Notes under the pieces: model-generated
Database searches by the model: none
The model's input: the letters and a program-made list of their open reading frames with translations, nothing else
Told to the model about the DNA's origin: nothing
In this document: one piece after another, positions 51,335-63,867 of the stretch
Numbering within the stretch: the first letter of the stretch is position 1
How the letters are laid out: each line of letters opens with the position of its first letter
IMG/VR virus record: IMGVR_UViG_3300038412_000061
Coordinates: 31,950-95,949 of that record
DNA length: 64,000 nucleotides
Direction: 5' to 3' (one strand)
From: a virus
Made by a program: the position numbers and the translations under genes

Positions 51335-51389
51335 GAATCACCGGAAATTTTGCACATCGCGAGCGCGCGATTGGAATCTGTGCTACAAT
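51335..51389 (+). promoter_or_regulatory. element 1 (drives tRNA operon)
   Basis: GAATC..ATCGCGAGCGCGCGAT..TGC-TACAAT. Confidence 0.8.
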
Positions 51390-51430
51390 ATAGGCGTCCC
51401 AAAGAATTGCTTAAGAAGTTTGGAGGGATA

Positions 51431-51528
51431 GCCGTGTGCGTATGACAAGTGGCCCAGATACCCACTTAGGCAAGTACACATCGTCTTATGTACGATGAGG
51501 CTCGGTTCGAATCCGGGGCACGGCACCA
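51431..51528 (+). tRNA. tRNA-Ile(UAU)-like with extra hairpin in D-loop
   Basis: Acceptor GCCGTGT/GCACGGC+A-CCA; T arm CTCGG-TTCGAAT-CCGGG; anticodon stem CATCGT/ACGATG, loop CT-TAT-GT; D stem GTAT/GTAC. Confidence 0.75.
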
Positions 51529-51728
51529 TGGCGAAGAAAACACCTAAGAGCATGAAGGGGAAGTTGCCACGGACGTTCACGTGTGGGTACTGTCGAGAGG
51601 GTGACCCTCCAGTCGTAACACGCATGGTTGTGAACGACCCTGCGAATCGCTACCATTTCGAGACTCAACACGCTTGGGCAAAGGACAACTGGACCCCAGT
51701 GTCAGAGAGAGGGAGCAGGGGAACGTGA
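51528..51728 (+). CDS. small basic Zn-ribbon-like protein
   Basis: MAKKTPK...CGYC...; ATG overlaps tRNA CCA. Confidence 0.5.
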   Translation: MAKKTPKSMKGKLPRTFTCGYCREGDPPVVTRMVVNDPANRYHFETQHAWAKDNWTPVSERGSRGT

Positions 51729-52012
51729 TGAACGTGATCTACAAGTACGCGGTTGGGGCCGGAGGTGCCTCATACGAATTTCCGGTTGGCTACAAGATAC
51801 TCTCTGTTGGTGCGCAGGCGGAGGAAATATGCGTGTGGGTTGAGCACTCGGTCGAGGCGCAAACTACCCACCGCTCTGAGGTTGAGTTCACGATCATTCC
51901 AACTGGTGGGACCGGCCACGAGGAAGGGAGCATTGGAAATTACGTGGGAACCGTTTTGTTGTTTCGAGGTTCATTGGTGTTTCACATATTTGCAAAGGAG
52001 GTTGTGCAGTGA
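51728..52012 (+). CDS. conserved phage protein (IYKY...YVGTV...VFH family)
   Basis: IYKYAV, ILSVGAQ, PTG, YVGTV, LVFHIF. Confidence 0.65.
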   Translation: MNVIYKYAVGAGGASYEFPVGYKILSVGAQAEEICVWVEHSVEAQTTHRSEVEFTIIPTGGTGHEEGSIGNYVGTVLLFRGSLVFHIFAKEVVQ

Positions 52013-52179
52013 CAAGGGCAGAGAGAGCAAGGGCACAGGAGGAGGCGCGTAGCATGGCGGTTCGCTACGCCTTTGACGACGAGGAGAGTGGGACGGTCCA
52101 GTACGAGGGGAGCATGGCCCACAGGCGCAGTCACTCTCAGTGGGCCAATGTCGGTTCGATTGGGGCGAGCCGTTTGTAG
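52009..52179 (+). CDS. small hypothetical protein (56 aa)
   Basis: AGGAGG RBS, GTGA overlap, stop abuts element 2. Confidence 0.45.
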   Translation: MTRAERARAQEEARSMAVRYAFDDEESGTVQYEGSMAHRRSHSQWANVGSIGASRL

Positions 52180-52181
52180 TC

Positions 52182-52236
52182 GAATCCCCGAAAGGGGAGC
52201 TAATCGCGCGTGCGTGATGCACTTCAGTGCTATACT
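52182..52236 (+). promoter_or_regulatory. element 2
   Basis: CCCC-GAAA-GGGG hairpin; ATCGCGCGTGCGTGAT; TGC-TATACT. Confidence 0.85.
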
Positions 52237-52260
52237 TGAAAACGAAAGCGAGGGAAACAA

Positions 52261-52470
52261 ATGACTGAACACGATGTGAATGTCATGGAGGCACAGATTG
52301 CGCAACTTGAGTCCAACTACAAGGACGCCTGCGAGCGCTTGAATGCCATCTATGGATTGTTGCCATCGGGGACAACCGAGGAGGAAATCCGTGAAGAAAT
52401 CTACCAGGCAAACTACGACCCCATCGACGCCATTACGAAGATCGTTCAAATTCTAGAGGAGGGTGTATGA
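52261..52470 (+). CDS. small acidic protein
   Basis: First gene after element 2. Confidence 0.6.
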   Translation: MTEHDVNVMEAQIAQLESNYKDACERLNAIYGLLPSGTTEEEIREEIYQANYDPIDAITKIVQILEEGV

Positions 52471-52811
52471 GCGAAAGGCGCGTTAGGAGCAATGAGCCGT
52501 TCACCAAGGACCGTTTCTTGGGTATCAGCACTCAATCGGTACGGTCGGTCTACCGGTTTGCTGAGGAGCGTGAGGATGGTTCATATGCCGGTGGTGGATA
52601 TGCTCCCGGCGACATGATTGGTCATCAGATCATCAACACGGTGCGCGGTTTGTGTGATAAGGTGGACTACCTAGAAAGGGTCATTGTGGACATCGCTTTC
52701 GCTCTTCCGTCATCGAGGTCGGAGGTATGGGAGGGTGACGACATGTACGATTCGTTGGTGGCAATCCGAGAGATTTTGATTGAGGACGTTGGGTTTAAGG
52801 ACAACAGATGA
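52467..52811 (+). CDS. hypothetical protein
   Basis: Coupled ORF. Confidence 0.6.
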   Translation: MSERRVRSNEPFTKDRFLGISTQSVRSVYRFAEEREDGSYAGGGYAPGDMIGHQIINTVRGLCDKVDYLERVIVDIAFALPSSRSEVWEGDDMYDSLVAIREILIEDVGFKDNR

Positions 52812-53230
52812 GCGAATTCTTGAAGATTGACAGTGACGCATTGGACCGGCACATTACCGGAAATTACGGGGAGGACCAGTTGGGGACCGAGGAGCAAAAG
52901 GAGAACCTGTGGCATTGGCTTGAGAACGGTGCCGAGGACGCGTACCCAGTTGACCGCATCCTCCACGATTCTCTTTCCGAGTTCTACACGTGGGGTTTGA
53001 ACTACGACATGTCCACCAGCCCGTTCAATCTGTTCCGCGACCTGGTTGGTTGGAGCGAAGAGAACATCGGTGGGAGGTTGTACGACTACTCTGAGGGTAC
53101 ACTGGGCTACTTGGAGGCTGGACTTCTTTCAAAGGCGCTAGACTTTTGGAGTGACGACCCACGGCGCGTGGAAAAGTGGCTCGACCGTGTCAGTGAGTTG
53201 GAGTTGGCCGACTACGATGTCAATGGATAG
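52808..53230 (+). CDS. acidic hypothetical protein
   Basis: DALDRHITGNYGEDQ; LGYLEA. Confidence 0.6.
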   Translation: MSEFLKIDSDALDRHITGNYGEDQLGTEEQKENLWHWLENGAEDAYPVDRILHDSLSEFYTWGLNYDMSTSPFNLFRDLVGWSEENIGGRLYDYSEGTLGYLEAGLLSKALDFWSDDPRRVEKWLDRVSELELADYDVNG

Positions 53231-53657
53231 GTTCTATGATCAAGATGGAGGAAAGATAATGGGTATGGAAGACCACCCGTCGTTAAGCAACATGTCGCCC
53301 GACGAGCGACGGGAGTACATGCAATTCGCCAAGTTGGCGGGTCGAGACGTTCCACTACCGGAGGTAGGTAAGAAATCAATGGCAACGGAGGAATTGGTCT
53401 ACATTGACCGTGACGGTTTGTATGGTGATGCAACCGGCTTATTGGTCATCAAGACATCCGACCTGGGGGAGGGTGGCCGACAGGCCTTTGAAAAGGCCAA
53501 GGACCAGGCAGAGGACCTGTTGACGTGGGTGGTCGGATACCTTGGCGCGTCCGGCGTCCCCATCGGTGCGACTTTCGTGGCGCATACCTCCAAGTTGTAC
53601 CCGGCGACCGTCACCAAAAACTCCAGGGGCATCCTCAAGAGACTGCGGGGCATGTAG
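53223..53657 (+). CDS. hypothetical protein
   Basis: Coupled ORF; start uncertain. Confidence 0.5.
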   Translation: MDRFYDQDGGKIMGMEDHPSLSNMSPDERREYMQFAKLAGRDVPLPEVGKKSMATEELVYIDRDGLYGDATGLLVIKTSDLGEGGRQAFEKAKDQAEDLLTWVVGYLGASGVPIGATFVAHTSKLYPATVTKNSRGILKRLRGM

Positions 53658-53659
53658 AG

Positions 53660-53833
53660 ATGAGCGAGGTAGTGGGCTACACATGCAATGGTGAAATCTT
53701 TTGCCTTGCGTGTGTGGCCCTTAACCCTTGGGCGGAGCCGTTCAAACACTGTAGTCCACCCATCTTCAAGGATGAAGCGGACTACGTTGACTGTACCATT
53801 TGTGGCGCGCCCTTGATCGAATCAGCGGACTGA
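53660..53833 (+). CDS. small Zn-binding protein
   Basis: FCLAC...CTICG. Confidence 0.55.
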   Translation: MSEVVGYTCNGEIFCLACVALNPWAEPFKHCSPPIFKDEADYVDCTICGAPLIESAD

Positions 53834-53873
53834 GCTCAGATCGCGCACGCGCGATCCGCCACCGTGGTACACT
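53819..53873 (+). promoter_or_regulatory. element 3
   Basis: ATCGCGCACGCGCGAT; TGG-TACACT. Confidence 0.85.
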
Positions 53874-53898
53874 GTTTGCACAAGCGAGAGGATGCAAA

Positions 53899-54150
53899 GT
53901 GAGTAGGTTCAAGATCGGTGACGAAGTCGTCATCCACATGGATGGCAGGGACAGCGACCCTTATTGGGTGGGAAGACATGGAACCGTGTGCGACGTTCTT
54001 CCCGTTAAGGATGGGCACATTGTACCTAGCGTGTCATTCTATGTTAGTGACGCGGACACGTGGGACGTTCAGGTAAATGTGGAAGACCTGTTCGACGGCG
54101 AACTGGGGTCCGCACCATGGTTTGACGAGACTGAATTGGAGTTGGCATGA
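53899..54150 (+). CDS. SH3-like small protein
   Basis: FKIGDEV...GTV...ETELE. Confidence 0.55.
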   Translation: MSRFKIGDEVVIHMDGRDSDPYWVGRHGTVCDVLPVKDGHIVPSVSFYVSDADTWDVQVNVEDLFDGELGSAPWFDETELELA

Positions 54151-54749
54151 GTTACGTTCACGACACTTTCGTGCATGGCGACTGGAGGGTCAAAATCTTG
54201 CAGGACGAAGACTGCCCGAGTCCGCGAGAGTGGATTAACGTTGGCATAATGGTCACTTGGTGGCATGGCTACTCTTCACCAGATGGACAGGCAAACTCCT
54301 GGCACGACATTGAAGAGTTCGAGTCATGGTACAACTGGCAGGACAAAGACGAACGTTGGGTATGTTTGCCCCTGAAGCCACGGTATTACGATGGCGGGTA
54401 TCTCATTGCGTCCGACCAGGACATTTTGGAGAACCGTTATGTCGGGTGGATTTTCACTACAACGGAAACCGTGGAGTACACGGGCGCGCCGGTAGAGAGC
54501 CTTGAGGCGCAACTTCTTGCAGAGGTTGAAGAGTACAATACGTGGGCCAGCGGTTACTGCTACGGGTACGTTATAGAGCGTCTTGTCCCATCTTGTTCTT
54601 GCGGAGAGTGCAAAAACTGGGAGGAAGTCGAAGATGGTTCATGTTGGGGTTTCATTGGCAAGATTTTGGACTTCTACTACCCGGACGGTTTCCCCGAGGA
54701 GTTGAAGTGCGAATTGCGCAAGAGTGGCTACCTTGGGGAGGGAGTATGA
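54147..54749 (+). CDS. acidic, aromatic-rich conserved MGE protein
   Basis: DEDCPSPREW...EVEEYNTWASGYCYGYVIE...SCWGF. Confidence 0.65.
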   Translation: MSYVHDTFVHGDWRVKILQDEDCPSPREWINVGIMVTWWHGYSSPDGQANSWHDIEEFESWYNWQDKDERWVCLPLKPRYYDGGYLIASDQDILENRYVGWIFTTTETVEYTGAPVESLEAQLLAEVEEYNTWASGYCYGYVIERLVPSCSCGECKNWEEVEDGSCWGFIGKILDFYYPDGFPEELKCELRKSGYLGEGV

Positions 54750-54970
54750 GCGCGGGAATAGCGAAGGTCAGGAACTACCATCCGGGGGAGTTCATCTACG
54801 GGCGGAAAATTCTGAATGAAGAGACCGTTGATGTGTTTCTTACAGATGTCGAGGTGGAGAGCGCCGAGAGGGGCCTGGTGGATGACAACGGGAACGTCGT
54901 GTTGGAGATCGAAGTGGACGGTTGCATCGAACTTGTCATTGTACAATCGATAGATTTGGAGTGGCGATGA
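54746..54970 (+). CDS. small acidic protein
   Basis: ATGA coupled. Confidence 0.5.
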   Translation: MSAGIAKVRNYHPGEFIYGRKILNEETVDVFLTDVEVESAERGLVDDNGNVVLEIEVDGCIELVIVQSIDLEWR

Positions 54971-54990
54971 AGGAATCAATGTGATTGAAT

Positions 54991-55045
54991 GAATCCGAGC
55001 AACCGGAGCTAATCGCGCGTGCGCGATCCAGATCTGTGGTACACT
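54991..55045 (+). promoter_or_regulatory. element 4
   Basis: ATCGCGCGTGCGCGAT; TGG-TACACT. Confidence 0.85.
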
Positions 55046-55072
55046 GTGACCACGAACAAGGAAAGGCAACAC

Positions 55073-55378
55073 ATGAAGGTGCGAATCACGGAGGGTCAGT
55101 CGGTGACTGGAATCTCCTCTCACAACTACCCGCGCGGTACGGTTGTCGAGGTGAACGACGACCTTGTCATTTTGGACGGCCCGAGGCCAGGGTACATTCT
55201 GGACGCTGATTGGTGCGAAGAGGTCGAGGGCGACACCTCATCCTACGCCGTCAACGTTAGAATTACGTATGAGGAGGTCCGAGGCCTTGAAAGGGTGATT
55301 GCTTTCGCTGAGGACGAGGGCCTGAATGTTGACCTTGAGTGGGGAGTTTTGGGAAAGATCAGAAAGGCCATGCAATGA
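55073..55378 (+). CDS. hypothetical protein
   Basis: RBS; first gene after element 4. Confidence 0.55.
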   Translation: MKVRITEGQSVTGISSHNYPRGTVVEVNDDLVILDGPRPGYILDADWCEEVEGDTSSYAVNVRITYEEVRGLERVIAFAEDEGLNVDLEWGVLGKIRKAMQ

Positions 55379-55671
55379 GGCACCTAGACGCAATGATGTT
55401 GCAGATCAAGAGTCTTGACAACGATGCTTCCGTCCGATACAGTCAGTACACCCACATGTGGTACGTGTCGGCAAACATCGAGATTGGTGGCGATGGGCTT
55501 CTGTCAGGAATCGCTTCACATGCCGAATCCCCCCAGTTGGCTGTAGAGGAGTATTTCAAAGTCATCACCACAGTGCCCATTGGCTATTACCTGGTAACGG
55601 AGCGTGGGGAGGGGCGTCGTGAGTGGTTGTGGAATGGTGCCGCATTTTTTGAGACTGGACGGACGAAATGA
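55375..55671 (+). CDS. hypothetical protein
   Basis: ATGA coupled. Confidence 0.55.
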   Translation: MRHLDAMMLQIKSLDNDASVRYSQYTHMWYVSANIEIGGDGLLSGIASHAESPQLAVEEYFKVITTVPIGYYLVTERGEGRREWLWNGAAFFETGRTK

Positions 55672-56066
55672 CAGATATTGACCTGGACAAGATAGTTAAC
55701 GGGTACCTTCAATGTGCCCTGTTTACGGGGGTGACTGAAGACGACGAGCCCATGGACTACGTCTACAACATTGGCGATTTTTCCGAAGAGGCGGTCGAGC
55801 AGGCAACCGTGGAATGTGCTCTTTTCGTGCAGTCGAATTTGGACGACGTTAGAGAGTTGCTGGATTCCCATGGTGGGGTCGATAACGAGGACATCGGTAT
55901 GGACTTGTGGTACACCCGGAATGGACATGGATGTGGCTTTTGGGACCGGGGGTATGGCGAGTTGGGCGACCGTCTGACCGAGTACTGCCACACTATCCCA
56001 GAGCGTAGTGTGGTGGCAGGGGATGGAAACGAATTCGAGTTGGGCGACACGTTGGTGATCGAATGA
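55668..56066 (+). CDS. acidic conserved phage protein
   Basis: YLQCALF...G.DLWYTRNGHGCGFWDRG. Confidence 0.65.
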   Translation: MTDIDLDKIVNGYLQCALFTGVTEDDEPMDYVYNIGDFSEEAVEQATVECALFVQSNLDDVRELLDSHGGVDNEDIGMDLWYTRNGHGCGFWDRGYGELGDRLTEYCHTIPERSVVAGDGNEFELGDTLVIE

Positions 56067-56290
56067 ATGAGAGCGTGCGTACCGTAACTGACAAAGAAAT
56101 CTGGGAATTGAGCGCTAGTGCTGTTAACGCCATGGACAATTTCTTTGACAATGAGGCTGATGTTGGCGGAGACATGAATGAATGGACTCACGCTGACGCA
56201 GTTGCGTTGTGGGATGACATAATCATGTATTTGGAATCTCGTCGGAATCGTAGCAAAGAGATTGTGGAGAGTAGCGAAAATGGTAGTTAA
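56063..56290 (+). CDS. small acidic protein
   Basis: Coupled ORF. Confidence 0.5.
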   Translation: MNESVRTVTDKEIWELSASAVNAMDNFFDNEADVGGDMNEWTHADAVALWDDIIMYLESRRNRSKEIVESSENGS

Positions 56291-56447
56291 GTCCAAGCAC
56301 ACAGGCGAGTCGTGGGTGGTCATTGCCAACCGTGAGAGATGGGAGCGAAGAAGGGAAGAGGCTAAGGCAAGACGCCTTGAACTGTTGAAGGTCCGTGCCG
56401 ATTACTACGCCAGAATCTCGCACGACTACGACAACGATCTTATTTGA
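56280..56447 (+). CDS. small hypothetical protein
   Basis: Stop TGA lies in the TGAATC of element 5. Confidence 0.45.
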   Translation: MVVKSKHTGESWVVIANRERWERRREEAKARRLELLKVRADYYARISHDYDNDLI

Positions 56448-56501
56448 ATCCCCGGAAAAGGGGTGGAATCGCGCGTACGCGATAAGCTAATCTGGTACAC
56501 T
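56446..56501 (+). promoter_or_regulatory. element 5
   Basis: CCCC..GGGG hairpin; ATCGCGCGTACGCGAT; TGG-TACACT. Confidence 0.85.
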
Positions 56502-56527
56502 GGTGCAAACGACTTGAGAGGAATACT

Positions 56528-56923
56528 GTGGAACTTGAATTGAAGGAACGGTGGGTAGGCGCACTTCGAAGCGGTGAGTATCGTCAGGGGAAGGGAGTGC
56601 TACGCACCGATAGTGACAAGTACTGTTGCTTGGGAGTTTTGTGCAACCTGGTGGACCCCAACGCCTGGGAGCCGGGTACCGTGTCCCAATGGGTGGGCTC
56701 AGAGGAGGGCGATGACGGCGCAATGGTCGAGGCTCGCGTCTACCCACAGCCTTTGAATTCGAGGGAGAAGATCGACGAGAAGGCGATTCCCTACACCTTC
56801 CTCTCTACCAAGTTCTTGCAAGATGTAGGCCTGGATGAAGGGATTGCTCACATGCTTGCCGAACGCAACGACCTTGGATGGTCTTTCGGTGAACTGGCTG
56901 AACTGATCGAAGAGAGGGTCTGA
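56528..56923 (+). CDS. conserved phage protein (WV.ALRSG.Y.QG...CCLGV family)
   Basis: WVGALRSGEYRQGKG, YCCLGVLC, NDLGWSF. Confidence 0.7.
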   Translation: MELELKERWVGALRSGEYRQGKGVLRTDSDKYCCLGVLCNLVDPNAWEPGTVSQWVGSEEGDDGAMVEARVYPQPLNSREKIDEKAIPYTFLSTKFLQDVGLDEGIAHMLAERNDLGWSFGELAELIEERV

Positions 56924-56926
56924 TTT

Positions 56927-56981
56927 GAATCCCCGGAAGGGGGTATGATCGCGCGTGCGCGATCTGCGCATTCGGTAGACT
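56927..56981 (+). promoter_or_regulatory. element 6
   Basis: CCCC-GGAA-GGGG; consensus palindrome; TAGACT. Confidence 0.85.
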
Positions 56982-57006
56982 GGAGACAAGCAAAACAGGA
57001 GGAATT

Positions 57007-57270
57007 ATGAGTTTTTTCACAGCGAAGTACATCCGAGAGTGCTTGGATGGAGTGCCGGACGATGAGCCTGTATTCGGCATTATCTTCACCCGCGCCGAGA
57101 ACGAAGTGGACGCGGTGGACGAGGACGGGAACTACGGTAGCCGTGTAACGACTCCTGCGGAGTGGGAGAAGATCGTGGAAAGGGCCGAGTCATATGCGGA
57201 GCCCTACGGTTTTAATAGTCTGTGGGAGTGTCTGAACGACGCCAAGAGCGAAGTGGTGACTTGTGACTAA
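57007..57270 (+). CDS. small acidic protein
   Basis: AGGAGG RBS. Confidence 0.6.
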   Translation: MSFFTAKYIRECLDGVPDDEPVFGIIFTRAENEVDAVDEDGNYGSRVTTPAEWEKIVERAESYAEPYGFNSLWECLNDAKSEVVTCD

Positions 57271-57758: not shown

Positions 57759-57768
57759 TCGAGCGAAC

Positions 57769-57823
57769 GAATCCCCCCGAGTGGGAACAATCGCGTGCAC
57801 GCGATCTGCATCTTTGATACACT
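57769..57823 (+). promoter_or_regulatory. element 7
   Basis: Perfect palindrome ATCGCGTGCACGCGAT; TGA-TACACT. Confidence 0.85.
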
Positions 57824-57841
57824 GGAGGAACAGGGGGGCAA

Positions 57842-58030: not shown

Positions 58031-58173
58031 TGCACATTTTTCACAAGTGGGGGAAGTGGGAGGCCTTCGACGTGTTGTCAGTTGACACGTCCACCGGTAA
58101 GGGGTATGAGGTTACGCGACAAAAGCGTATGTGTCGTAAGTGTGGACTACTGAGGGTCAAGAAACTGGGGTAG
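58030..58173 (+). CDS. small Zn-ribbon protein
   Basis: HKWGKW...QKRMCRKCG; TAATG overlap. Confidence 0.5.
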   Translation: MHIFHKWGKWEAFDVLSVDTSTGKGYEVTRQKRMCRKCGLLRVKKLG

Positions 58174-58235
58174 GGGAAACCAAAGTACGAATCATGGTCA
58201 TGGAGTGCACCAATTTGAGGGGTGGTCATGGGGTT

Positions 58236-58289
58236 AAATCCCCGGACCGGAGCTGATCGTGCGCGCGCGATACCCGCACCTGGTACACT
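58236..58289 (+). promoter_or_regulatory. element 8
   Basis: AAATC; ATCGTGCGCGCGCGAT; TGG-TACACT. Confidence 0.8.
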
Positions 58290-58312
58290 GGAATCACAAG
58301 CGAGGAGAGAAT

Positions 58313-58543
58313 ATGGAAAGCCCAACAGTATCATTCGCAGTGGAGAGCGAGTTCGACGCCAGGGTTGTGGAGAACTTCTACAACACTTTGCGCCGTGTCC
58401 GCGAGTTGAAGACCATGTCGGTCCGCAAGCCGGGGATGTCAACCGAGGAGCAGGAGACAGCCGACCTGGCCCTTGACGACTACAACAATGCACGCTGGTC
58501 AATGTTCCGCTGGATTGAGCGACGTTGCGAGGACGGTGTCTGA
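58313..58543 (+). CDS. hypothetical protein
   Basis: GAGGAG RBS. Confidence 0.55.
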   Translation: MESPTVSFAVESEFDARVVENFYNTLRRVRELKTMSVRKPGMSTEEQETADLALDDYNNARWSMFRWIERRCEDGV

Positions 58544-58770
58544 TGGACCAAGACATCATTACCCTGTTGGAGAGGGTGAGGGAGAAACGGCACGCGTGGA
58601 GGTTCGGTGACACCTTCGGGGACGACGAGCGTTACGAAGAGTACGCCAAAGCGAAGAAAGAGTACATGAGGTTCTGTGAATATGCCGTGTACGACGAGCG
58701 CGGAGAGGACGAGCAACCGCGAGACACCTTCGGTCTGGGAAAGTTGGAGGAGGCCCACGCAGAATGGTGA
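58543..58770 (+). CDS. hypothetical protein
   Basis: TGATG coupled. Confidence 0.55.
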   Translation: MDQDIITLLERVREKRHAWRFGDTFGDDERYEEYAKAKKEYMRFCEYAVYDERGEDEQPRDTFGLGKLEEAHAEW

Positions 58771-59060
58771 GCAATTTTTTTGGGAGGGGGAGGAAGGTAT
58801 ACGACGACGCACCGCCCGAGTACTCCTCAGTGCAAACAGACTCGCTGGAAGATGCAGAGGCACTTAAACTTATATACAGGTACGTAAAGATGAGCCGTGT
58901 CATACACACCCTGGGAGAGAGGGATGGCATGGTGTACGACGACTTGGAAGCGGACCTGGTTGGGAAAACATGTGGATTGGTGGGTGACATGATCGACCCC
59001 GAGTGGGGTAGCAAGTTCAGGGAAATCCTTTATCGGGATGGGGTGGTTTGGTATGTGTGA
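58764..59060 (+). CDS. hypothetical protein
   Basis: Coupled ORF. Confidence 0.5.
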   Translation: MVSNFFGRGRKVYDDAPPEYSSVQTDSLEDAEALKLIYRYVKMSRVIHTLGERDGMVYDDLEADLVGKTCGLVGDMIDPEWGSKFREILYRDGVVWYV

Positions 59061-59241
59061 ATTGGACAAAGAGACTGAGTCATGGGAATACGGGGAAAGA
59101 GGGTTACAGCGTAGAGGGACACAGGAAATCCTAGATCGAACGGAGAAGCCATTGGTGGACAATCACGGTAGATACGTGTGGACCGTAACTTACTGCCAGT
59201 ATGGTGGAAAGAGGTTCAAAGCCACATGGAGGGAATATTAG
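59053..59241 (+). CDS. small hypothetical protein
   Basis: Coupled ORF. Confidence 0.45.
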   Translation: MCELDKETESWEYGERGLQRRGTQEILDRTEKPLVDNHGRYVWTVTYCQYGGKRFKATWREY

Positions 59242-59620
59242 TCTTCATCGAATCATTCTGGCACCTATGAACGCTGAAGGTACATAGTGACTTTGGGATG
59301 ATGAGTTGTTTTGAACCTATACCCATACTGGTTGAATTCCCTGATGGGTGTGGTGGAATGGGTATGAATCACACGTCTTTCGGAAAAACACACGTGTATG
59401 CGTGATTTTGCACCACCGTTGCACGGAATTCCGAATTATTCCTGATCAAATCATGTAATTTGCACCAATCCTCATTGAATCATGCGCGAAAGTAGACAAA
59501 ATGGACGCGGGAAGGGGGTTATTCCGGGTATTTCACCCACCTATTTTGACCAGGCAAAACGTGAAAAAAAGGGAGGTTTCACACCGGGGCTGAGTAAATT
59601 GAAAGTAGACAAGCGTGATC

Positions 59621-59657
59621 GAATCACGGGTTCGCCGCCGAATCGCGCGCACGCGAT
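59621..59657 (+). promoter_or_regulatory. element 9 (truncated: no -10, no cargo)
   Basis: GAATC..ATCGCGCGCACGCGAT followed 7 nt later by element 10. Confidence 0.8.
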
Positions 59658-59664
59658 CCACATT

Positions 59665-59719
59665 GAATCACGGGTGGGCAGGAGCATCGCGCGTGCGCGA
59701 TAGCCCTGAATCGTAAGAT
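59665..59719 (+). promoter_or_regulatory. element 10 (leaderless)
   Basis: Consensus palindrome; TAAGAT; ATG at 59726. Confidence 0.8.
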
Positions 59720-59725
59720 TTGGGC

Positions 59726-59908
59726 ATGGAAACCTACCAAATCAAAGACTGGACCGGGAAGGTGTGTTTCTTCGGTCAGACGTTCGAATCCTTCGAAGAC
59801 GCATGGGGCTTCATCTACGAGTCCGACCCGGAACCGTCACAGGGAGACCCCAGGTGGCAAGATGGATGGTACGACGACTACTATGTGGAACCGGTGGAGG
59901 GTGATTGA
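59726..59908 (+). CDS. small acidic aromatic protein
   Basis: FESFEDAWGFIYE...YDDYYVE; stop in TGAATC. Confidence 0.6.
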   Translation: METYQIKDWTGKVCFFGQTFESFEDAWGFIYESDPEPSQGDPRWQDGWYDDYYVEPVEGD

Positions 59909-59961
59909 ATCACCGGTTTGCCGGTTAATCGCGCGCGCGCGATGACTCTGGGTGATAGAGT
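59907..59961 (+). promoter_or_regulatory. element 11
   Basis: ACCGG-TTTG-CCGGT; AT(CG)6AT; TGA-TAGAGT. Confidence 0.85.
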
Positions 59962-59978
59962 GGTGGAAAAGGAGGGAC

Positions 59979-60125
59979 ATGTCTACACCATACAGTGACA
60001 CCCAGTTGGAGACAGCGGGAAGGGATGTGGAGTTAACGTTCCAAGCGTGGCAGGATGCCATAGCAGTACAGGACATGATGTTGGAGCACAATGTTTTGGT
60101 GGAGAGGGAGGAAGACTTCTATTAA
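59979..60125 (+). CDS. small acidic protein (48 aa)
   Basis: AAGGAGG RBS; MSTPYSDTQLE...EEDFY. Confidence 0.55.
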   Translation: MSTPYSDTQLETAGRDVELTFQAWQDAIAVQDMMLEHNVLVEREEDFY

Positions 60126-60126
60126 C

Positions 60127-60180
60127 GAATCCCCGGCGCGGGGAATTTCGTGCGCGCGCGATGGGGGACTGTGATAGAGT
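60127..60180 (+). promoter_or_regulatory. element 12
   Basis: TTCGTGCGCGCGCGAT; TGA-TAGAGT. Confidence 0.8.
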
Positions 60181-60198
60181 AGTGGGAAAGGAGGGTTC

Positions 60199-60330
60199 AT
60201 GGAATACTGTTCAGGGTGTAATTACGACCACTCGCCATCAGACTGTTCTTATGGAATGTCGGTGGAGGATTACGAGCGTGAATCAGGAGACTACCGAACG
60301 GAAGAGAGATACGCCAACGGAGAGCACTAA
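60199..60330 (+). CDS. small Cys/acidic protein (43 aa)
   Basis: AAGGAGG RBS; CSGC..H....C. Confidence 0.55.
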   Translation: MEYCSGCNYDHSPSDCSYGMSVEDYERESGDYRTEERYANGEH

Positions 60331-60331
60331 T

Positions 60332-60387
60332 GAATCACCGGGAAACCGGGTATATCGCGCGTGCGCGATCAGCTGGTGTATTACACT
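60332..60387 (+). promoter_or_regulatory. element 13
   Basis: CCGG-GAAA-CCGG; consensus palindrome; TACACT. Confidence 0.85.
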
Positions 60388-60418
60388 TGGGAGCAAGGAA
60401 TCAACCAAAGGAGATGAA

Positions 60419-60634
60419 GTGGCAACAAGATACGAGTATGAGGTTCAGGTCACCCACTATGTGGCGTTCTACGACGATGATGTGGTGGGGGACAGCCGTT
60501 TCGAGGGCGACCCGGACAACGTGACCGACGAGGACCGCGCAGGGTTCGCCAGTCGTAACTGGGGCGGAGTGTACGACACGGATTTCTCATTCGACGTGGT
60601 GAACGAGTACGACGCGACGGAGGAGGAAGACTGA
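60419..60634 (+). CDS. very acidic small protein
   Basis: AAGGAG RBS, GTG start. Confidence 0.6.
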   Translation: MATRYEYEVQVTHYVAFYDDDVVGDSRFEGDPDNVTDEDRAGFASRNWGGVYDTDFSFDVVNEYDATEEED

Positions 60635-60801
60635 TGGCGAGCAAGCGACAATTGCCCAAGGATGCGGTGCACAAGCGATTCCTTCCCCCCGGTCCCTGCG
60701 ATTTTTGTGGGGTGGAAGGACCATTGAGGGCGGTCAAGCGCGGAAAGGGTGAGGCGAATTACTACTGCATTCCCTGTCACGTGGACGGCAACGCCGCGTG
60801 A
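60634..60801 (+). CDS. small Zn-finger protein (55 aa)
   Basis: CDFCG...YCIPCH; TGATG coupled. Confidence 0.55.
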   Translation: MASKRQLPKDAVHKRFLPPGPCDFCGVEGPLRAVKRGKGEANYYCIPCHVDGNAA

Positions 60802-60803
60802 AT

Positions 60804-60858
60804 GAATCCCCGGAAGGGGGTGCAATCGCGCGTGCGCGATGGGGTGGTGTGTTACACT
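60804..60858 (+). promoter_or_regulatory. element 14
   Basis: CCCC-GGAA-GGGG; consensus; TGT-TACACT. Confidence 0.85.
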
Positions 60859-60886
60859 GAGAGCAAGAAGCAACCAAGGAGGCACA

Positions 60887-61246
60887 ATGGGCACAGTCCA
60901 GATAGTAAGAGAGATTGATGAGACCGAGTTTTGGTCCAACATCATGGGGAGTGGCTGGGAGTCGTTCGGCAGTTGGTGGGTCTCGGAGGACTACATCTCA
61001 GGTGACTGGGAAACACCGGGGGAAGTGACACTGACAATTGCGGACCCGGAGAACGAAGACACGGTGGTCGTGGGGAAGGTGACACTGCCCATCCTACTCC
61101 AAGCCTACAATGACCTTTGGGCGAAGGTAGGTCAGAAGGGTAGCGACGGTATGCACCCTGACTACCTGGACATCGACAATCTCGATTGCGTGGGTGGCGA
61201 CGGAATCCTCCAGCAGGCCATCCTAGGTGGTGTCATCTACGGGTGA
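60887..61246 (+). CDS. acidic conserved phage protein
   Basis: C-terminal LD...D.ILQ.A..G.VIYG; AAGGAGG RBS. Confidence 0.65.
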   Translation: MGTVQIVREIDETEFWSNIMGSGWESFGSWWVSEDYISGDWETPGEVTLTIADPENEDTVVVGKVTLPILLQAYNDLWAKVGQKGSDGMHPDYLDIDNLDCVGGDGILQQAILGGVIYG

Positions 61247-61274
61247 GTTTTTATGCAGACCGGTGAGTTTTAAT

Positions 61275-61330
61275 GAATCACCGGCTTTGCACCCCCATCG
61301 CGCGCGCGCGATCCCCACGCCTGCTACAAT
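61275..61330 (+). promoter_or_regulatory. element 15
   Basis: AT(CG)6AT; TGC-TACAAT. Confidence 0.85.
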
Positions 61331-61360
61331 GTAGACGTACCAAACAACCGAAGGAGAGAT

Positions 61361-61732
61361 ATGACGGATTACACAGAAGGCCCGGAAGTCGAGGTCGAGG
61401 AAGACGAGGGGGAGGAGTTGGAAGGTTTCGCCCGAATTCTGGACGAAGTTCCCAGCAACCTCGCGAGCCTTGATGAGGAGGCGTTTGAGGCGTTCTACGA
61501 CAACCAGCCATCCTACTGGGACTCGTGCGACGTAGAAGATTTCTGGAGCGAGTTTGAGGACGCCTATCAGGGCACGTGGTCCAGCGATGAGGAATTCGCC
61601 CAGGAGATGGCTGAGATGTCGGGATACCGCGCCAGCAATGAGTGGCCTTACTACTGCATCAACTGGGATTTCGCGGCCCGTGAGTTGATGTACGACTATT
61701 TCGAGAGTGGCGGGTACTACTTCCGTCGCTAA
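61361..61732 (+). CDS. ArdA-like antirestriction protein (DNA mimic)
   Basis: FEDAYQGTWSSDEEFAQE...YYCINWDFAAREL..DY....GYYFR; very D/E-rich. Confidence 0.72.
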   Translation: MTDYTEGPEVEVEEDEGEELEGFARILDEVPSNLASLDEEAFEAFYDNQPSYWDSCDVEDFWSEFEDAYQGTWSSDEEFAQEMAEMSGYRASNEWPYYCINWDFAARELMYDYFESGGYYFRR

Positions 61733-61737
61733 AATTC

Positions 61738-61790
61738 GCGGGGGTAGGGTTTCTTGGTTGTCCCTACCCCCGCCCTCCACGAACCAAGAA
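61738..61790 (+). other. H-type RNA pseudoknot / strong hairpin after ArdA-like gene
   Basis: 12-bp stem GCGGGGGTAGGG/CCCTACCCCCGC; loop TTCTTGGTT complementary to downstream AACCAAGAA. Confidence 0.6.
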
Positions 61791-61803
61791 CGCGTGCGTA
61801 ATC

Positions 61804-61858
61804 AAATCACGCGCTTGCCCATCCATCGCGCGTGCGCGATGACCTCATCTGGTACACT
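61804..61858 (+). promoter_or_regulatory. element 16
   Basis: AAATC; consensus; TGG-TACACT. Confidence 0.85.
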
Positions 61859-61882
61859 GTGCGTACCAACCAAAGGAGTGAG

Positions 61883-62095
61883 ATGAAGACCTACACAGTT
61901 TGCCAGCGTGTCTACTGCTATGACACGTTTGACGAGTCGGACATCCCGGAGGGTTTGACCCCCATCGAGTACGCCGAACAGCGTTACGAAGAAGAGTTGG
62001 GCGACCCGGATTCGCATGAGTTGTATCTCATTGGTGAGGACGAGGACGGCAGGGTGTTCATGAGCATCGACACCGCCGACATGGAGGAGGATTAA
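61883..62095 (+). CDS. very acidic small protein
   Basis: AAAGGAG RBS. Confidence 0.6.
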   Translation: MKTYTVCQRVYCYDTFDESDIPEGLTPIEYAEQRYEEELGDPDSHELYLIGEDEDGRVFMSIDTADMEED

Positions 62096-62096
62096 C

Positions 62097-62152
62097 GAAT
62101 CACGGGGAAACCCGCAGAATCGCGCGTGCGCGATGGGGGGAAGATGTAGACT
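62097..62152 (+). promoter_or_regulatory. element 17
   Basis: CGGG-GAAA-CCCG; consensus; TAGACT. Confidence 0.85.
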
Positions 62153-62175
62153 GATGACACAACCAAAGGAGCAAG

Positions 62176-62493
62176 ATGTATTCATGGGAGATTGACAAGG
62201 ACGGGATCTACAGCCACCCACAATTCCATGGTGTGGCTTTGTACTGCAAGGGTCCGGCTAAGTCGTGGACTGATGAGTCCTGGGAGTTGGTGTGCGACGA
62301 GGAGGAATGCGACCACACTAGCGACATGTGTTACTACTACATCGAGCCCGAGGAATTCGAGGATGAGGAGCGCGTGGTGGTGGTGATGGTGGGCGACGAC
62401 TGGAAGCACACTGTCTACGCCGAGGACCTGACCAAGATTGACGAAGAGGACTACTGCCATGGGTGCGGTCAAATCGGGTGCGGTCATAGTTGA
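62176..62493 (+). CDS. acidic Cys-rich conserved phage protein
   Basis: VMVGDD...EEDYCHGCGQIGC; stop in TGAATC. Confidence 0.65.
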   Translation: MYSWEIDKDGIYSHPQFHGVALYCKGPAKSWTDESWELVCDEEECDHTSDMCYYYIEPEEFEDEERVVVVMVGDDWKHTVYAEDLTKIDEEDYCHGCGQIGCGHS

Positions 62494-62546
62494 ATCCGGG
62501 GAACCGGGTACAATCGCGCGTGCGCGATAGACACATGTGTTATACT
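62492..62546 (+). promoter_or_regulatory. element 18
   Basis: CCGG-GGAA-CCGG; consensus; TGT-TATACT. Confidence 0.85.
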
Positions 62547-62574
62547 GGGCACATCACCAACCAAGGAGGATGAG

Positions 62575-62721
62575 ATGGCTTGCGAAGACTTCCCGTGCTG
62601 TGGGCACGAGATGGGCGATTGCGAGGGCCTGTTGTACGGCTCGGACGAGAGCATCAAGGCGCGCGTGTATGCTCGGATGGAGCAGGACTACTACGACCCG
62701 TACTACGATGACGAGTACTAG
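62575..62721 (+). CDS. small CEDxPCCGH-motif acidic protein (48 aa)
   Basis: MACEDFPCCGH...YYDDEY; AAGGAGG RBS. Confidence 0.6.
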   Translation: MACEDFPCCGHEMGDCEGLLYGSDESIKARVYARMEQDYYDPYYDDEY

Positions 62722-62724
62722 GTC

Positions 62725-62779
62725 GAATCCCCGAAAGGGGGTGCAATCGCGCGTGCGCGATGCGGAGGGATGGTATACT
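62725..62779 (+). promoter_or_regulatory. element 19 (leaderless)
   Basis: CCCC-GAAA-GGGG; consensus; TGG-TATACT; ATG at 62785. Confidence 0.85.
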
Positions 62780-62784
62780 GAGAC

Positions 62785-63003
62785 ATGACCAAAAAACAAC
62801 TACAAATCATGTCTTACGCCATTGCCATTGCGACATTCGTGGTGGTCTTCGAGATTCTGGACGTTCTTGCTGGCTACAACGCTGGCGTAGCGATTCAATG
62901 GCTCGTTATCATCGTCTCCCTACTCATTGCGTCCGCTGTCCTGCTGGTGGTTGCTCTGTGTGTCATGGCGGTATCCCCCCCAAAGAGACACCGCCGATAC
63001 TAG
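62785..63003 (+). CDS. 2-TM membrane protein
   Basis: Hydrophobic; leaderless start. Confidence 0.6.
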   Translation: MTKKQLQIMSYAIAIATFVVVFEILDVLAGYNAGVAIQWLVIIVSLLIASAVLLVVALCVMAVSPPKRHRRY

Positions 63004-63019
63004 GGGAGGGTGCGTGATT

Positions 63020-63074
63020 GAATCACGCGCCAGCCCGCTCATCGCGCGCGCGCGATCCGCCTACCTGCTACACT
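63020..63074 (+). promoter_or_regulatory. element 20
   Basis: AT(CG)6AT; TGC-TACACT. Confidence 0.85.
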
Positions 63075-63097
63075 GGTGGTACGATCAAGGAGATGAG

Positions 63098-63271
63098 ATG
63101 AACGGATACATAGCGTTTTACAAGGGGAAGCGGACTGAAGTCTACGCGGAGACCCTGTACGGTGCGCAGTTGGAAGCGGCTAAGTTCTTCGGTGCCAAAA
63201 AGTCTTATGAGGTCATTGTGGGACTGGCCGAGAAAGATGGTGTGCCAGTGGTGCACCGCGCGGTTGATTGA
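63098..63271 (+). CDS. conserved small phage protein
   Basis: MNGYIAFYKGKRTEVYA...AQ..AA..F; stop in TGAATC. Confidence 0.65.
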   Translation: MNGYIAFYKGKRTEVYAETLYGAQLEAAKFFGAKKSYEVIVGLAEKDGVPVVHRAVD

Positions 63272-63324
63272 ATCACGCGCAGCTGCGTGCATCGCGCGCG
63301 CGCGATTGCCGGACCTGCTAGACT
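63270..63324 (+). promoter_or_regulatory. element 21
   Basis: AT(CG)6AT; TGC-TAGACT. Confidence 0.85.
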
Positions 63325-63351
63325 GTGCGCATCACCAACCAAGGAGATGTC

Positions 63352-63597
63352 ATGGAAGACTGCTACTACTGTGATGGCGAGCACGCCGAGGGAAATTGCC
63401 CGGTGCGCTCGGGAGATGTCCCCCTGCGCGAATGGAAGTGCGACTGCGGGCGCGTGGTGCAACTGTACTACTGGGAGCGTGCCAGCGACACGTCGTGCGA
63501 CTGCGGGCAGATGTTCAATTGCTGGGGTCAGCGCGTTAACGGCTCTCTGTACGACATCGACCCCATGGACGTAGGGGAGGGGTGGGACGATGATTGA
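63352..63597 (+). CDS. small multi-Cys Zn-binding acidic protein
   Basis: CYYC..H, CDCG x2, FNCWGQ; stop in TGAATC. Confidence 0.6.
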   Translation: MEDCYYCDGEHAEGNCPVRSGDVPLREWKCDCGRVVQLYYWERASDTSCDCGQMFNCWGQRVNGSLYDIDPMDVGEGWDDD

Positions 63598-63650
63598 ATC
63601 CCCACCGGGGACACACATCGCGCGTGCGCGATCCGGGAGTGTGGTACACT
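63596..63650 (+). promoter_or_regulatory. element 22 (no protein cargo evident)
   Basis: Consensus palindrome; TGG-TACACT. Confidence 0.85.
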
Positions 63651-63768
63651 GGGAATAGGCAGGAATCACGGAGGAGTAATTAACCATCCGGGTGAGATGT
63701 GCACTATCACCCTAATTCGTCTCGGGCCACCGGAGCGATGAGTGATGCCTAAACAGGTGGCATTTATC

Positions 63769-63823
63769 AAATCACCTGCCCCGACACACATCGCGTGCGC
63801 GCGATCCGGGGAAATGTTAGACT
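63769..63823 (+). promoter_or_regulatory. element 23
   Basis: AAATC; ATCGCGTGCGCGCGAT; TGT-TAGACT. Confidence 0.85.
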
Positions 63824-63867
63824 GGTGACATGAAGGACAAGACATACCAAGCGTGGGAGGAACTACA

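What the first reader, a model, noticed from the sequence alone, without database searches (positions are those of the whole stretch)
51335..63823. 23-copy phage promoter class in which a 16-bp CG palindrome replaces the -35 box
Seen: 23 co-oriented, mostly intergenic elements: (G/A)AATC, then ATCGCG-N4-CGCGAT starting 20-22 nt later (~2 helical turns). In all 22 complete copies exactly 12 nt separate the palindrome from a TAnnnT -10, and 18 of 22 carry the extended TG. The palindrome therefore sits at about -40 to -25, and no TTGACA is present. The promoters found left of 51.33 kb are instead canonical TTG-type -35 with 16-17 nt spacers. Established: T4 middle promoters replace -35 with a MotA box (sigma appropriation), and extended -10 promoters can work without a -35. 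Inference: a dedicated regulon of ~40 small genes switched by one dimeric factor, with an upstream accessory site. Candidates in this window are the two WhiBs (the family binds SigA region 4) and the LexA-like DBD. I do not recognise this motif from described phages.
Basis: partly seen in the sequence, partly recalled or inferred. Interest (0 to 1): 0.92.

Follow-up and report, generated by a model that had tools for sequence, protein, structure and literature searches.

The report
Phage promoter array with CG palindrome
An uncultured actinobacterial phage drives about 45 small early-type genes from 26 near-identical promoters whose usual -35 box is replaced by a 16-bp CG palindrome, probably the docking site of a still unidentified dimeric regulator; the design recurs in related uncultured phages.

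Summary
The window holds 23 copies of ATCGCG-N4-CGCGAT (chance 0.01). The array runs over the genome end, giving 28 unique copies in the 95.9-kb phage. In 26 of these, TAnnnT follows after exactly 12 nt, and 21 carry TGn. They behave as real host-RNAP promoters. Fifteen of 89 related elements open SD-less ORFs, 12 with ATG exactly 6 nt after the -10 (leaderless mRNAs). About 20 canonical TTGACA-17-TAnnnT promoters with the same -10 flavour serve the rest of the genome. No phage RNAP or sigma was found.

The design is conserved in uncultured relatives: 98 unique elements, 89 at 12 nt and 7 at 11 nt, with randomised spacers. A second lineage lacks the AATC box. In a third, complete genome the palindrome sits about 13 bp further upstream, beside a weak -35.

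The composite motif is absent from 185,579 prokaryote genomes and from the searched literature. The binding factor was not identified. WhiB1, WhiB2 and a conserved Cys/His protein next to WhiB2 are only leads, and the 'LexA-like' protein is a replication initiator.

I favour positive control (a -35 substitute). A shut-off repressor remains a serious rival. This is a new variant of known kinds (T4 MotA, PafBC and PeSL).

The parts
51335..51389 (+). element 1: GAATC, palindrome at 51356-51371, 12 nt, TGC-TACAAT
52182..52236 (+). element 2: palindrome at 52203 (1 mismatch), TGC-TATACT
53819..53873 (+). element 3: palindrome at 53840, TGG-TACACT
54991..55045 (+). element 4: palindrome at 55012, TGG-TACACT
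56447..56501 (+). element 5: palindrome at 56468, TGG-TACACT
56927..56981 (+). element 6: palindrome at 56948, TAGACT, no TG
57769..57823 (+). element 7: palindrome at 57790, TGA-TACACT
58235..58289 (+). element 8: palindrome at 58256 (1 mismatch), TGG-TACACT
59621..59657 (+). element 9: GAATC plus palindrome at 59642 without a -10 ('empty' unit in tandem with element 10)
59665..59719 (+). element 10: palindrome at 59686, TAAGAT; leaderless ATG at 59726
59907..59961 (+). element 11: palindrome at 59928, TGA-TAGAGT
60126..60180 (+). element 12: palindrome at 60147 (2 mismatches), TGA-TAGAGT
60333..60387 (+). element 13: palindrome at 60354, TACACT, no TG
60804..60858 (+). element 14: palindrome at 60825, TGT-TACACT
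61276..61330 (+). element 15: palindrome at 61297, TGC-TACAAT; drives the ArdA-like gene 61361-61732
61804..61858 (+). element 16: palindrome at 61825, TGG-TACACT
62098..62152 (+). element 17: palindrome at 62119, TAGACT, TG displaced by one position
62492..62546 (+). element 18: palindrome at 62513, TGT-TATACT
62725..62779 (+). element 19: palindrome at 62746, TGG-TATACT; leaderless ATG at 62785
63020..63074 (+). element 20: palindrome at 63041, TGC-TACACT
63270..63324 (+). element 21: palindrome at 63291, TGC-TAGACT
63596..63650 (+). element 22: palindrome at 63617, TGG-TACACT
63769..63823 (+). element 23: palindrome at 63790, TGT-TAGACT; leaderless ATG at 63830. It lies in the 247-bp terminal repeat, so it is the same copy as genome position 37.
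51564..64000 (+). cargo of the array: about 40 small ORFs in the window and about 45 in all. Roughly two thirds have pI below 5. Nearly all are ORFans; one is ArdA-like (61361-61732).
38404..38748 (+). WhiB2: WhiB domain plus a basic C-terminal tail. Conserved in G001, G405 and G406. A lead for the factor or cofactor only.
38721..39470 (+). 249-aa protein (P0006) next to WhiB2 in four phages. Cys42, Cys60, Cys76 and His79 are invariant ('CKFHGG'), and the C-terminal half is helical. Weak likeness to small terminase subunits. A lead only.
25654..26097 (-). WhiB1, conserved in the relatives. A lead only.
An unlikely regulator of the array.

Best explanation
Each element is a genuine promoter read by the host's housekeeping RNA polymerase through an extended -10 (TGnTAnnnT), with transcription starting 7 nt after the hexamer. 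The 16-bp palindrome has two ATCGCG half-sites 10 bp apart and lies at -40 to -25, centred exactly where sigma region 4 would read a -35 box. I read it as the high-affinity site of a dimeric, most likely phage-encoded, DNA-binding protein.

I commit to positive control. The bound dimer takes the place of -35 recognition by holding or adapting sigma region 4 or the polymerase. This turns on about 45 small, mostly very acidic takeover and anti-defence genes as one block.

Upstream, the preceding gene's stop codon, an AATC box 20 nt before the palindrome and a variable hairpin close the previous cassette. The repeated units also serve as break points for cassette shuffling.

Shown: the repeat, its geometry, its conservation, its promoter character, and the lack of a -35.
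Inferred: that a protein binds, that it is a dimer, that the phage encodes it, and the sign of control.
For: Promoter character:
- The -10 lies at exactly 12 nt in 26 of 28 copies, and TGn is present in 21 of 26.
- Fifteen of 89 related elements have an SD-less ATG 4-7 nt after the -10, opening conserved ORFs; 12 of these are at exactly 6 nt. At random positions the rate is 9% spread over 8 offsets.
- The rest of the genome uses the same -10 flavour with perfect TTGACA at 17 nt: 23 sites against 3 in the control.
- No phage RNAP or sigma was found in about 190 scanned ORFs.

Protein site:
- The sequence, not merely the structure, is invariant across lineages with 42-53% GC. By contrast, the 9-nt spacer has 0.295 pairwise identity against 0.268 expected by chance.
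- The half-sites are one helical turn apart.

Coupling to the polymerase:
- Spacing is 12 nt in 89 and 11 nt in 7 of 98 unique elements, although the spacer sequences are randomised.
- The palindrome centre equals the centre of a -35 hexamer at 17-nt spacing (geometry).
- In the complete relative G406 the site lies entirely upstream of a weak -35, centred at about -45 to -47. That is a usual activator position and an unusual one for a simple repressor.

Phage rather than host factor:
- The composite motif has 0 hits in 185,579 prokaryote species genomes.
- No regulon was found in 401 Actinomycetota genomes.

Precedents:
- The T4 MotA box lies 12 +/- 1 bp from the -10, and about half of those promoters carry TGn (PMC2988021).
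- PafBC hybrid promoters lack a -35 (PMC8635444).
- Homodimeric SiwR activates from a palindrome in the -35/-10 region (PMC10693628).
Against: - No binding protein was identified, and there are no expression data: the only run that holds the DNA is a DNA metagenome.
- Extended -10 promoters can work without any -35 or activator. TGn is commoner here (92% in family A) than in the canonical class (15 of 23), which fits self-sufficient promoters that are repressed.
- The cargo (ArdA-like, acidic proteins) looks immediate-early. That is awkward if a phage-made activator is needed first.
- The site's position differs between lineages (-32.5 against about -46), and within G406 the spacing varies from 24 to 27 nt. 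A steric repressor tolerates such variation more easily than a stereospecific activator.
- The asymmetry between half-sites points in different directions in different lineages.
Confidence: 0.45

Rival explanations
1. Shut-off or immunity operator. The extended -10 promoters fire on their own as soon as the DNA enters. A phage repressor dimer, made from one of the canonical promoters or from the array itself, then binds the palindrome, blocks the -35 zone, and silences all takeover genes together.
For: - The site is a perfect, high-information palindrome overlapping the promoter.
- TGn is present in 92% of elements, so no -35 is needed.
- The cargo is of the immediate-early type: an ArdA-like protein, and about two thirds of the proteins with pI below 5.
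- The operator position differs between lineages, and the spacing is loose (24-27 nt) in G406.
- Palindromes without a -10 persist at array ends and in empty units.
- Many-operator phage repressors are known (P1 C1, L5 gp71, phiC31 CIR; from my own knowledge, not checked here).
Against: - Spacing to the -10 is held at 12 nt (11 in 7) in 96 of 98 elements while the spacer sequence is random. Steric repression does not require this.
- In G406 the site leaves both the -35 and the -10 free.
- No repressor-like HTH, RHH or Cro/CI protein was detected in about 190 ORFs.
- No integrase or other sign of lysogeny was seen.
Confidence: 0.33
2. Hijack of a host factor. The palindrome is the site of a host transcription factor, for example a stress or DNA-damage activator of the PafBC/SiwR kind. 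The phage has wired its early genes to a protein that is already present in the cell.
For: - It would reconcile activator-like geometry with immediate-early cargo.
- Actinobacterial precedents exist: PafBC and SiwR.
- The phage has no recognisable regulator of its own apart from the WhiBs.
Against: - The composite motif has 0 hits in 185,579 species genomes.
- The palindrome alone occurs only as scattered single hits across phyla.
- In 401 Actinomycetota genomes no genome has more than 3 one-mismatch matches in one orientation (4 counting both), and none is promoter-like in series.
- The motif does not match the PafBC consensus tGTCgg-N10-TAnnnT.
- The host is unknown, so its own sites may simply not have been sampled.
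Confidence: 0.1
3. No transcription factor is involved. The palindrome acts as nucleic-acid structure, or as a recombination module. It could be an RNA hairpin ending the upstream transcript, a (CG)6 tract that flips to Z-DNA or a cruciform and buffers supercoiling, or simply the homology patch for cassette exchange.
For: - Most family A copies are AT(CG)6AT, the classic Z-forming tract; the literature hits for this sequence are Z-DNA oligonucleotides.
- Cassettes are gained, lost and moved at the elements, and contigs of relatives break at the array.
- In T4-type PeSLs the stem-loop can overlap the -35 (PMC2839356).
Against: - The sequence is conserved, flanking A/T included, with no compensatory change. 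A separate, variable hairpin already lies upstream.
- Family B has a CGGG centre, which breaks the purine-pyrimidine alternation.
- There is no U-tract, and terminator-like sites are at chance (12 against 10.1).
- There is no Rfam match.
- No integrase or recombinase was found.
- The fixed distance to the -10 would be unexplained.
Confidence: 0.07

Closest known systems
T4 middle promoters (MotA box with AsiA: sigma appropriation)
   Same: A phage-specific element replaces the -35. It is fixed 12 +/- 1 bp upstream of a host-type TAnnnT -10, often with TGn. There are dozens of copies in one genome (PMC2988021).
   Different: The MotA box is a 9-bp asymmetric A/T-rich motif read by a monomer, whereas this is a 16-bp GC palindrome. 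No MotA or AsiA homologue was detected. The host is an actinobacterium. The cargo is small ORFans rather than replication genes.
PafBC and SiwR hybrid promoters of Actinobacteria (sigma adaptation)
   Same: The housekeeping SigA -10 is kept, there is no -35, and a factor site lies at a fixed distance. SiwR is a homodimer on a palindrome in the -35/-10 region (PMC8635444, PMC10693628).
   Different: The consensus differs (tGTCgg-N10-TAnnnT for PafBC). The element sits at -26 rather than -32.5. Those are host regulons. No WYL protein was found in the phage.
PeSL cassettes (promoter-early stem-loop) of T4-type phages
   Same: Composite terminator-like stem-loop plus promoter units lie between small ORFan genes in a plastic region. 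Cassette gain, loss and movement happen at the units (PMC2839356, PMC4122927).
   Different: PeSL promoters are ordinary sigma-70 -35/-10 promoters. They have no invariant palindromic protein site and belong to unrelated phages and hosts.
Multi-operator phage repressor systems (lambda-type operators; P1 C1; mycobacteriophage L5 stoperators; phiC31 CIR).
   Same: One regulator has many identical sites spread over early transcription units.
   Different: Those sites lie at varied positions relative to the promoters and their repressor genes are known. Here the geometry is fixed and no repressor was found.

Membership tests
Extended -10 (TGn/-10) promoter of housekeeping sigma-70/SigA | TAnnnT hexamer | tested here: met
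   26 of 28 copies, at a fixed position; 96 of 98 elements in relatives, counting 12-nt and 11-nt spacing
Extended -10 (TGn/-10) promoter of housekeeping sigma-70/SigA | TG at -15/-14 | tested here: met
   18 of 22 in the window, 21 of 26 in the genome, 92% in family A
Extended -10 (TGn/-10) promoter of housekeeping sigma-70/SigA | transcription start 6-8 nt after the hexamer | tested here: inconclusive
   Indirect only: 12 SD-less conserved ORFs start with ATG exactly 6 nt after the hexamer. No RNA data exist.
T4 MotA-dependent middle promoter | MotA box (a/t)(a/t)(a/t)TGCTTtA centred at -30 | tested here: not met
   The element is ATCGCG-N4-CGCGAT, palindromic and centred at -32.5
T4 MotA-dependent middle promoter | 12 +/- 1 bp between the element and the -10 | tested here: met
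   12 nt in 89 and 11 nt in 7 of 98 elements
T4 MotA-dependent middle promoter | MotA and AsiA encoded by the phage | tested here: not met
   No such Pfam or PHROG hit in about 190 ORFs
PafBC-type hybrid promoter (sigma adaptation) | tGTCgg-N10-TAnnnT consensus (-26 element) | tested here: not met
   The sequence upstream of the -10 is CGCGAT-N12, with no GTC at -26
PafBC-type hybrid promoter (sigma adaptation) | no -35 alongside a canonical -10 | tested here: met
PafBC-type hybrid promoter (sigma adaptation) | the factor inserts between the DNA and sigma region 4 | not testable with these tools
   Needs biochemistry or a structure
PeSL regulatory cassette | promoter plus stem-loop unit between ORFan genes | tested here: met
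   Hairpins lie in the 42 nt upstream (mean -11 kcal/mol, mean z -1.6); the cargo is ORFans
PeSL regulatory cassette | canonical sigma-70 -35 and -10 | tested here: not met
   No -35 is present
PeSL regulatory cassette | cassette insertions, deletions and rearrangements bounded by the units | tested here: met
   Cassette families F1-F8 and F10 occur in different orders. An empty tandem unit sits in L018 where L020 has F7.
Integron-like cassette array | integrase and attC-type sites | tested here: not met
   No recombinase was found in the scanned ORFs, and every cassette has its own promoter
Repressor operator overlapping a promoter | a cognate repressor gene in the phage | tested here: inconclusive
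   No HTH, RHH or CI/Cro family was detected, but small phage repressors often escape profile searches

The most novel reading that the evidence does not exclude
An uncultured clade of actinobacterial phages has its own sigma-appropriation or sigma-adaptation system. A phage-encoded dimer binds AT(CG)6AT-type palindromes and stands in for -35 recognition by host SigA. The dimer may be the conserved Cys3His protein encoded next to WhiB2, acting together with that sigma-region-4-binding WhiB. It would switch on an arsenal of about 45 acidic takeover and anti-defence genes. In a sister lineage the same factor would act from about -45.
Probability: 0.25. Interest if true: 0.85.

Novelty: new variant of a known kind. 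Interest (0 to 1): 0.6.

Why it matters
If a phage factor replaces -35 recognition here, it would be a second, independently evolved form of sigma appropriation. It would be the first in actinobacterial phages, a group that matters for phage therapy of mycobacteria and for Streptomyces and Corynebacterium engineering.

About 150 natural promoter variants from three lineages, with two geometries, give a ready-made mutational series for in vitro work. They would also provide a compact, orthogonal switch for synthetic biology.

Even under the repressor reading, the array marks out the phage's takeover and anti-defence genes. Two thirds of them are strongly acidic, and one is ArdA-like. The array also shows PeSL-like cassette shuffling outside the T4 group.

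One practical point: assemblies of related phages break at this array.

Tried and rejected
- **Near-identical DNA in GenBank phages:** none. The closest cultured relatives are Arthrobacter phages at 28-32% protein identity.
- **RNA evidence:** no RNA holder is listed; the single holder is a mine-drainage DNA metagenome.
- **Rfam:** nothing above noise in 50.5-64 kb.
- **tRNA scan of the window:** 0 genes.
- **Host-operator tests:**
  - The composite motif has 0 hits in genome contigs.
  - The palindrome alone gives more than 120 scattered single hits in many phyla.
  - In 401 Actinomycetota genomes, 69 have 1-3 one-mismatch hits in one orientation (4 at most on both strands) and there is no series.
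  - One recurring host hit (L154/L156) proved to be a single homologous locus with an imperfect site and was dropped.
- **Search for the factor:** Pfam and PHROG scans of about 190 ORFs gave no HTH, RHH, sigma, RNAP, MotA, AsiA, WYL or integrase.
- **The 249-aa protein P0006:**
  - Weak hits to PDB RNase III (E about 0.02-0.04) were judged spurious after reading the sequence.
  - The atlas gives only unnamed phage clusters.
  - The AlphaFold model is too poor to use (pLDDT 49.6), so no fold search was run.
- **The AATC box as a degenerate third half-site:** rejected as a simple reading, because G never occupies the fourth position.
- **Literature:** full-text searches for the motif returned only unrelated primers and Z-DNA oligonucleotides. 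phiC31 CIR papers are not in the library.
- **Earlier scan notes:** no look-alike sequence was found by sequence search.

Full report
**Observation.**
An exact search finds 20 copies of ATCGCG-N4-CGCGAT in the window, all between 51356 and 63790, where shuffles give 0.01. Allowing mismatches adds 52203, 58256 and 60147, which have the same flanks. Every copy has (G/A)AATC 20-22 nt upstream. Twenty-two of the 23 have TAnnnT exactly 12 nt downstream, and 18 of those 22 have TG at -15/-14. The exception, 59642, is a unit without a -10, followed 44 bp later by a complete unit.

**Extent.**
The window is the right 64 kb of a 95,949-bp virus record with a 247-bp terminal repeat that carries one mismatch. 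The array continues across the end to genome position 1794. In all there are 28 unique palindromes in about 14.7 kb, 26 of them with the -10 at 12 nt and 21 of those with TGn. No further copy occurs in the other 81 kb apart from chance-level sites with 1-2 mismatches. The DNA comes from a mine-drainage metagenome. Two WhiB genes and an Rpf-like domain point to an actinobacterial host. The nearest cultured phages are Arthrobacter phages, at only about 30% protein identity.

**Are they promoters?**
Four lines of sequence evidence say yes.
- The -10 hexamers (TACACT, TAGACT, TACAAT and the like) with TGn are the same flavour as in 23 canonical TTGACA-16/18-TAnnnT promoters found elsewhere in the genome (control 3). 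These sit in front of RecA, ERF, the DnaB operon, the tRNA block and the terminase region.
- Inside the array, canonical -35/-10 sites are at chance, 7 against 7.1.
- Among 89 unique elements of this type from this phage and its relatives, 15 have an ATG 4-7 nt after the hexamer. Twelve of these lie at exactly 6 nt. They have no Shine-Dalgarno sequence and open ORFs conserved between phages, whereas random positions give 9% spread over eight offsets. This is the signature of leaderless mRNAs, which are common in Actinobacteria (my own knowledge). It places +1 seven nucleotides after the hexamer. Another 63 elements have an SD-led start 17-84 nt (mostly 17-31) after the hexamer.
- No RNA polymerase or sigma factor was found in about 190 scanned ORFs, including all the large ones.

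With the hexamer at -12 to -7, the palindrome spans -40 to -25. Its centre (-32.5) is exactly the centre of a -35 hexamer at 17-nt spacing. The AATC box lies at -60 to -57.

**Conservation.**
The composite pattern has no hit in 185,579 prokaryote species genomes. It does hit 18 metagenome contigs and two IMG/VR contigs. Three lineages emerge.
- **Family A** (this phage, G001 and 11 contigs). It has 98 unique oriented elements. The spacing is 12 nt in 89 and 11 nt in 7, and TGn is present in 92%. The AATC box starts 20 +/- 1 nt before the palindrome in 84 of 89. The spacer has 0.295 pairwise identity against 0.268 expected by chance. Length is therefore conserved while sequence is not.
- **Family B** (L001/L013 group). 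It has the same half-sites, a CGGG centre, 12-13 nt spacing, weaker -10 hexamers and no AATC box.
- **Family C** (the complete 78,430-bp genome G406; TerL 63% identical). It has 27 palindromes in one array, but the palindrome ends 24-27 nt before TGnTAnnnT. A weak TTGACx-like -35 lies 2 nt after it, and there is often an extra CATCGCGCAA half-site 19-20 or 30 nt upstream. The site centre there is about -45 to -47.

The contigs of two further relatives (G001, G405) stop exactly at the edges of where the array should be.

**Anatomy upstream.**
The preceding gene's stop codon usually sits in YRAATC (for example TGATTGAATC or TAATCAAATC). A hairpin of variable sequence follows or embraces the box (mean -11 kcal/mol). 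It has no U-tract, and terminator-like sites are at chance. The box never has G at the position where the half-site has G, so it is not simply a degenerate half-site.

**Cargo and plasticity.**
The array encodes about 45 small proteins. Nearly all have no family; one is ArdA-like (E = 6e-5, below Pfam's cut-off) and one is DUF7352. About two thirds have pI below 5, as DNA mimics and takeover proteins often do (my own knowledge). Between arrays, cassette families occur in different orders. In L018, 'empty' tandem elements sit where L020 has a cassette. This is the behaviour described for the PeSL cassettes of T4-type phages (PMC2839356, PMC4122927).

**Who binds?**
The half-sites are one helical turn apart, and the sequence is invariant across lineages of 42-53% GC. 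This argues for a dimeric DNA-binding protein rather than a structure: a terminator hairpin would co-vary, and family B breaks the Z-DNA alternation.

I could not identify the protein. The 'LexA-like' domain belongs to a replication initiator. The non-structural, non-replication proteins shared by all four larger genomes are WhiB1, WhiB2 and a 249-aa protein encoded next to WhiB2. That protein has invariant Cys42, Cys60, Cys76 and His79 and a helical C-terminal half. Its model was too poor to use. These are leads only.

A host factor is not excluded, but nothing supports one. There is no composite hit in host genomes. The palindrome alone gives only scattered single hits, and there is no series in 401 Actinomycetota genomes.

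**Mechanism.**
I hold with high confidence (about 0.85) that these are factor-linked extended -10 promoters. The sign of control is open.

For positive control (a -35 substitute):
- the spacing is fixed in spite of random spacers;
- the site coincides exactly with the -35 position;
- every copy lacks a -35, in a genome that elsewhere uses perfect TTGACA;
- in family C the site lies wholly upstream of a weak -35, as activator sites do;
- there are precedents in T4 MotA (12 +/- 1 bp), PafBC and SiwR.

For repression:
- the extended -10 is self-sufficient;
- the cargo looks immediate-early;
- the site's position differs between lineages, and the spacing in family C is loose.

The half-site asymmetry is strong in family A (49 distal against 1 proximal mismatch, p = 3e-14), but it points the other way in families B and C, so I do not lean on it. 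I put activation by a phage factor at 0.45, repression at 0.33, a hijacked host factor at 0.10 and non-protein roles at 0.07.

**Comparison and novelty.**
It works like T4 middle promoters or PafBC hybrid promoters, set in PeSL-like cassettes. It is a member of none of these. The element's sequence and symmetry, the absence of MotA, AsiA or WYL homologues, and the absence of a -35 each fail a defining feature. Full-text searches for the motif found nothing relevant.

Earlier notes of this scan describe analogous promoter-palindrome arrays in other phages. The general kind is therefore recurrent, while this motif and its two geometries are new. I rate it a new variant of a known kind, with interest 0.6.

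Noticed in passing
L028:1800-2440 (genome 1.8-2.4 kb, outside the window); also L020:6560-7260, L018:7720-8420, L016:2940-3640: Right after the last palindrome lies a conserved non-coding stretch of about 450-600 bp. It carries iteron-like repeats (TTCCTAC-N-TTCACTAGGAATAG) and further invariant blocks. It could be the replication origin for the O-like initiator, or a packaging site.
   Followed up: partly
genome ends: window 63754-64000, identical to genome 1-247: The 247-bp terminal direct repeat has one mismatch and lies inside the array. If the ends are real, takeover cassettes sit at both termini.
   Followed up: partly
window 51564-64000: About two thirds of the array proteins have pI 4.1-4.8, which is DNA-mimic-like. 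One is ArdA-like (61361-61732). A few are small, basic, Cys4 zinc-ribbon-like proteins (60634-60801, 58030-58173).
   Followed up: partly
window 40030-40210: Back-to-back canonical promoters at 40057 (-) and 40165 (+). The leftward one serves an acidic 130-aa protein that is 80% identical in G001. The rightward one appears to start a leaderless 60-aa ORF at 40200. The layout resembles a switch, but no family matched.
   Followed up: partly
window 39178-39193: A one-mismatch palindrome (AGCGCGTACGCGCGAT) lies inside the gene of the 249-aa candidate protein. No palindrome lies in the G406 ortholog (G001 and G405 were not examined for this), so it is probably chance.
   Followed up: partly
G001 and G405 (loci L005-L009, L207-L210): The contigs of related phages end exactly at the two edges of the expected array. 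The repeat evidently breaks short-read assemblies, and CheckV-style completeness values miss about 15 kb.
   Followed up: yes
ARAGORN reports no tRNA anywhere in the window.
   Followed up: partly
genome 10038-11222 (RtcB), window 43306-44742 (CCA-adding enzyme), window 48120-48863 (RNA ligase), genome about 13-18 kb (tRNA block): The phage carries a full tRNA repair and maintenance kit beside a large tRNA array, which suggests defence against host anticodon nucleases.
   Followed up: no
L018:436-480: At the start of one relative's array, three AATC boxes occur in tandem with an 11-bp period (TCGAATCCTCA repeated three times). This suggests the box is itself a protein-binding site.
   Followed up: no
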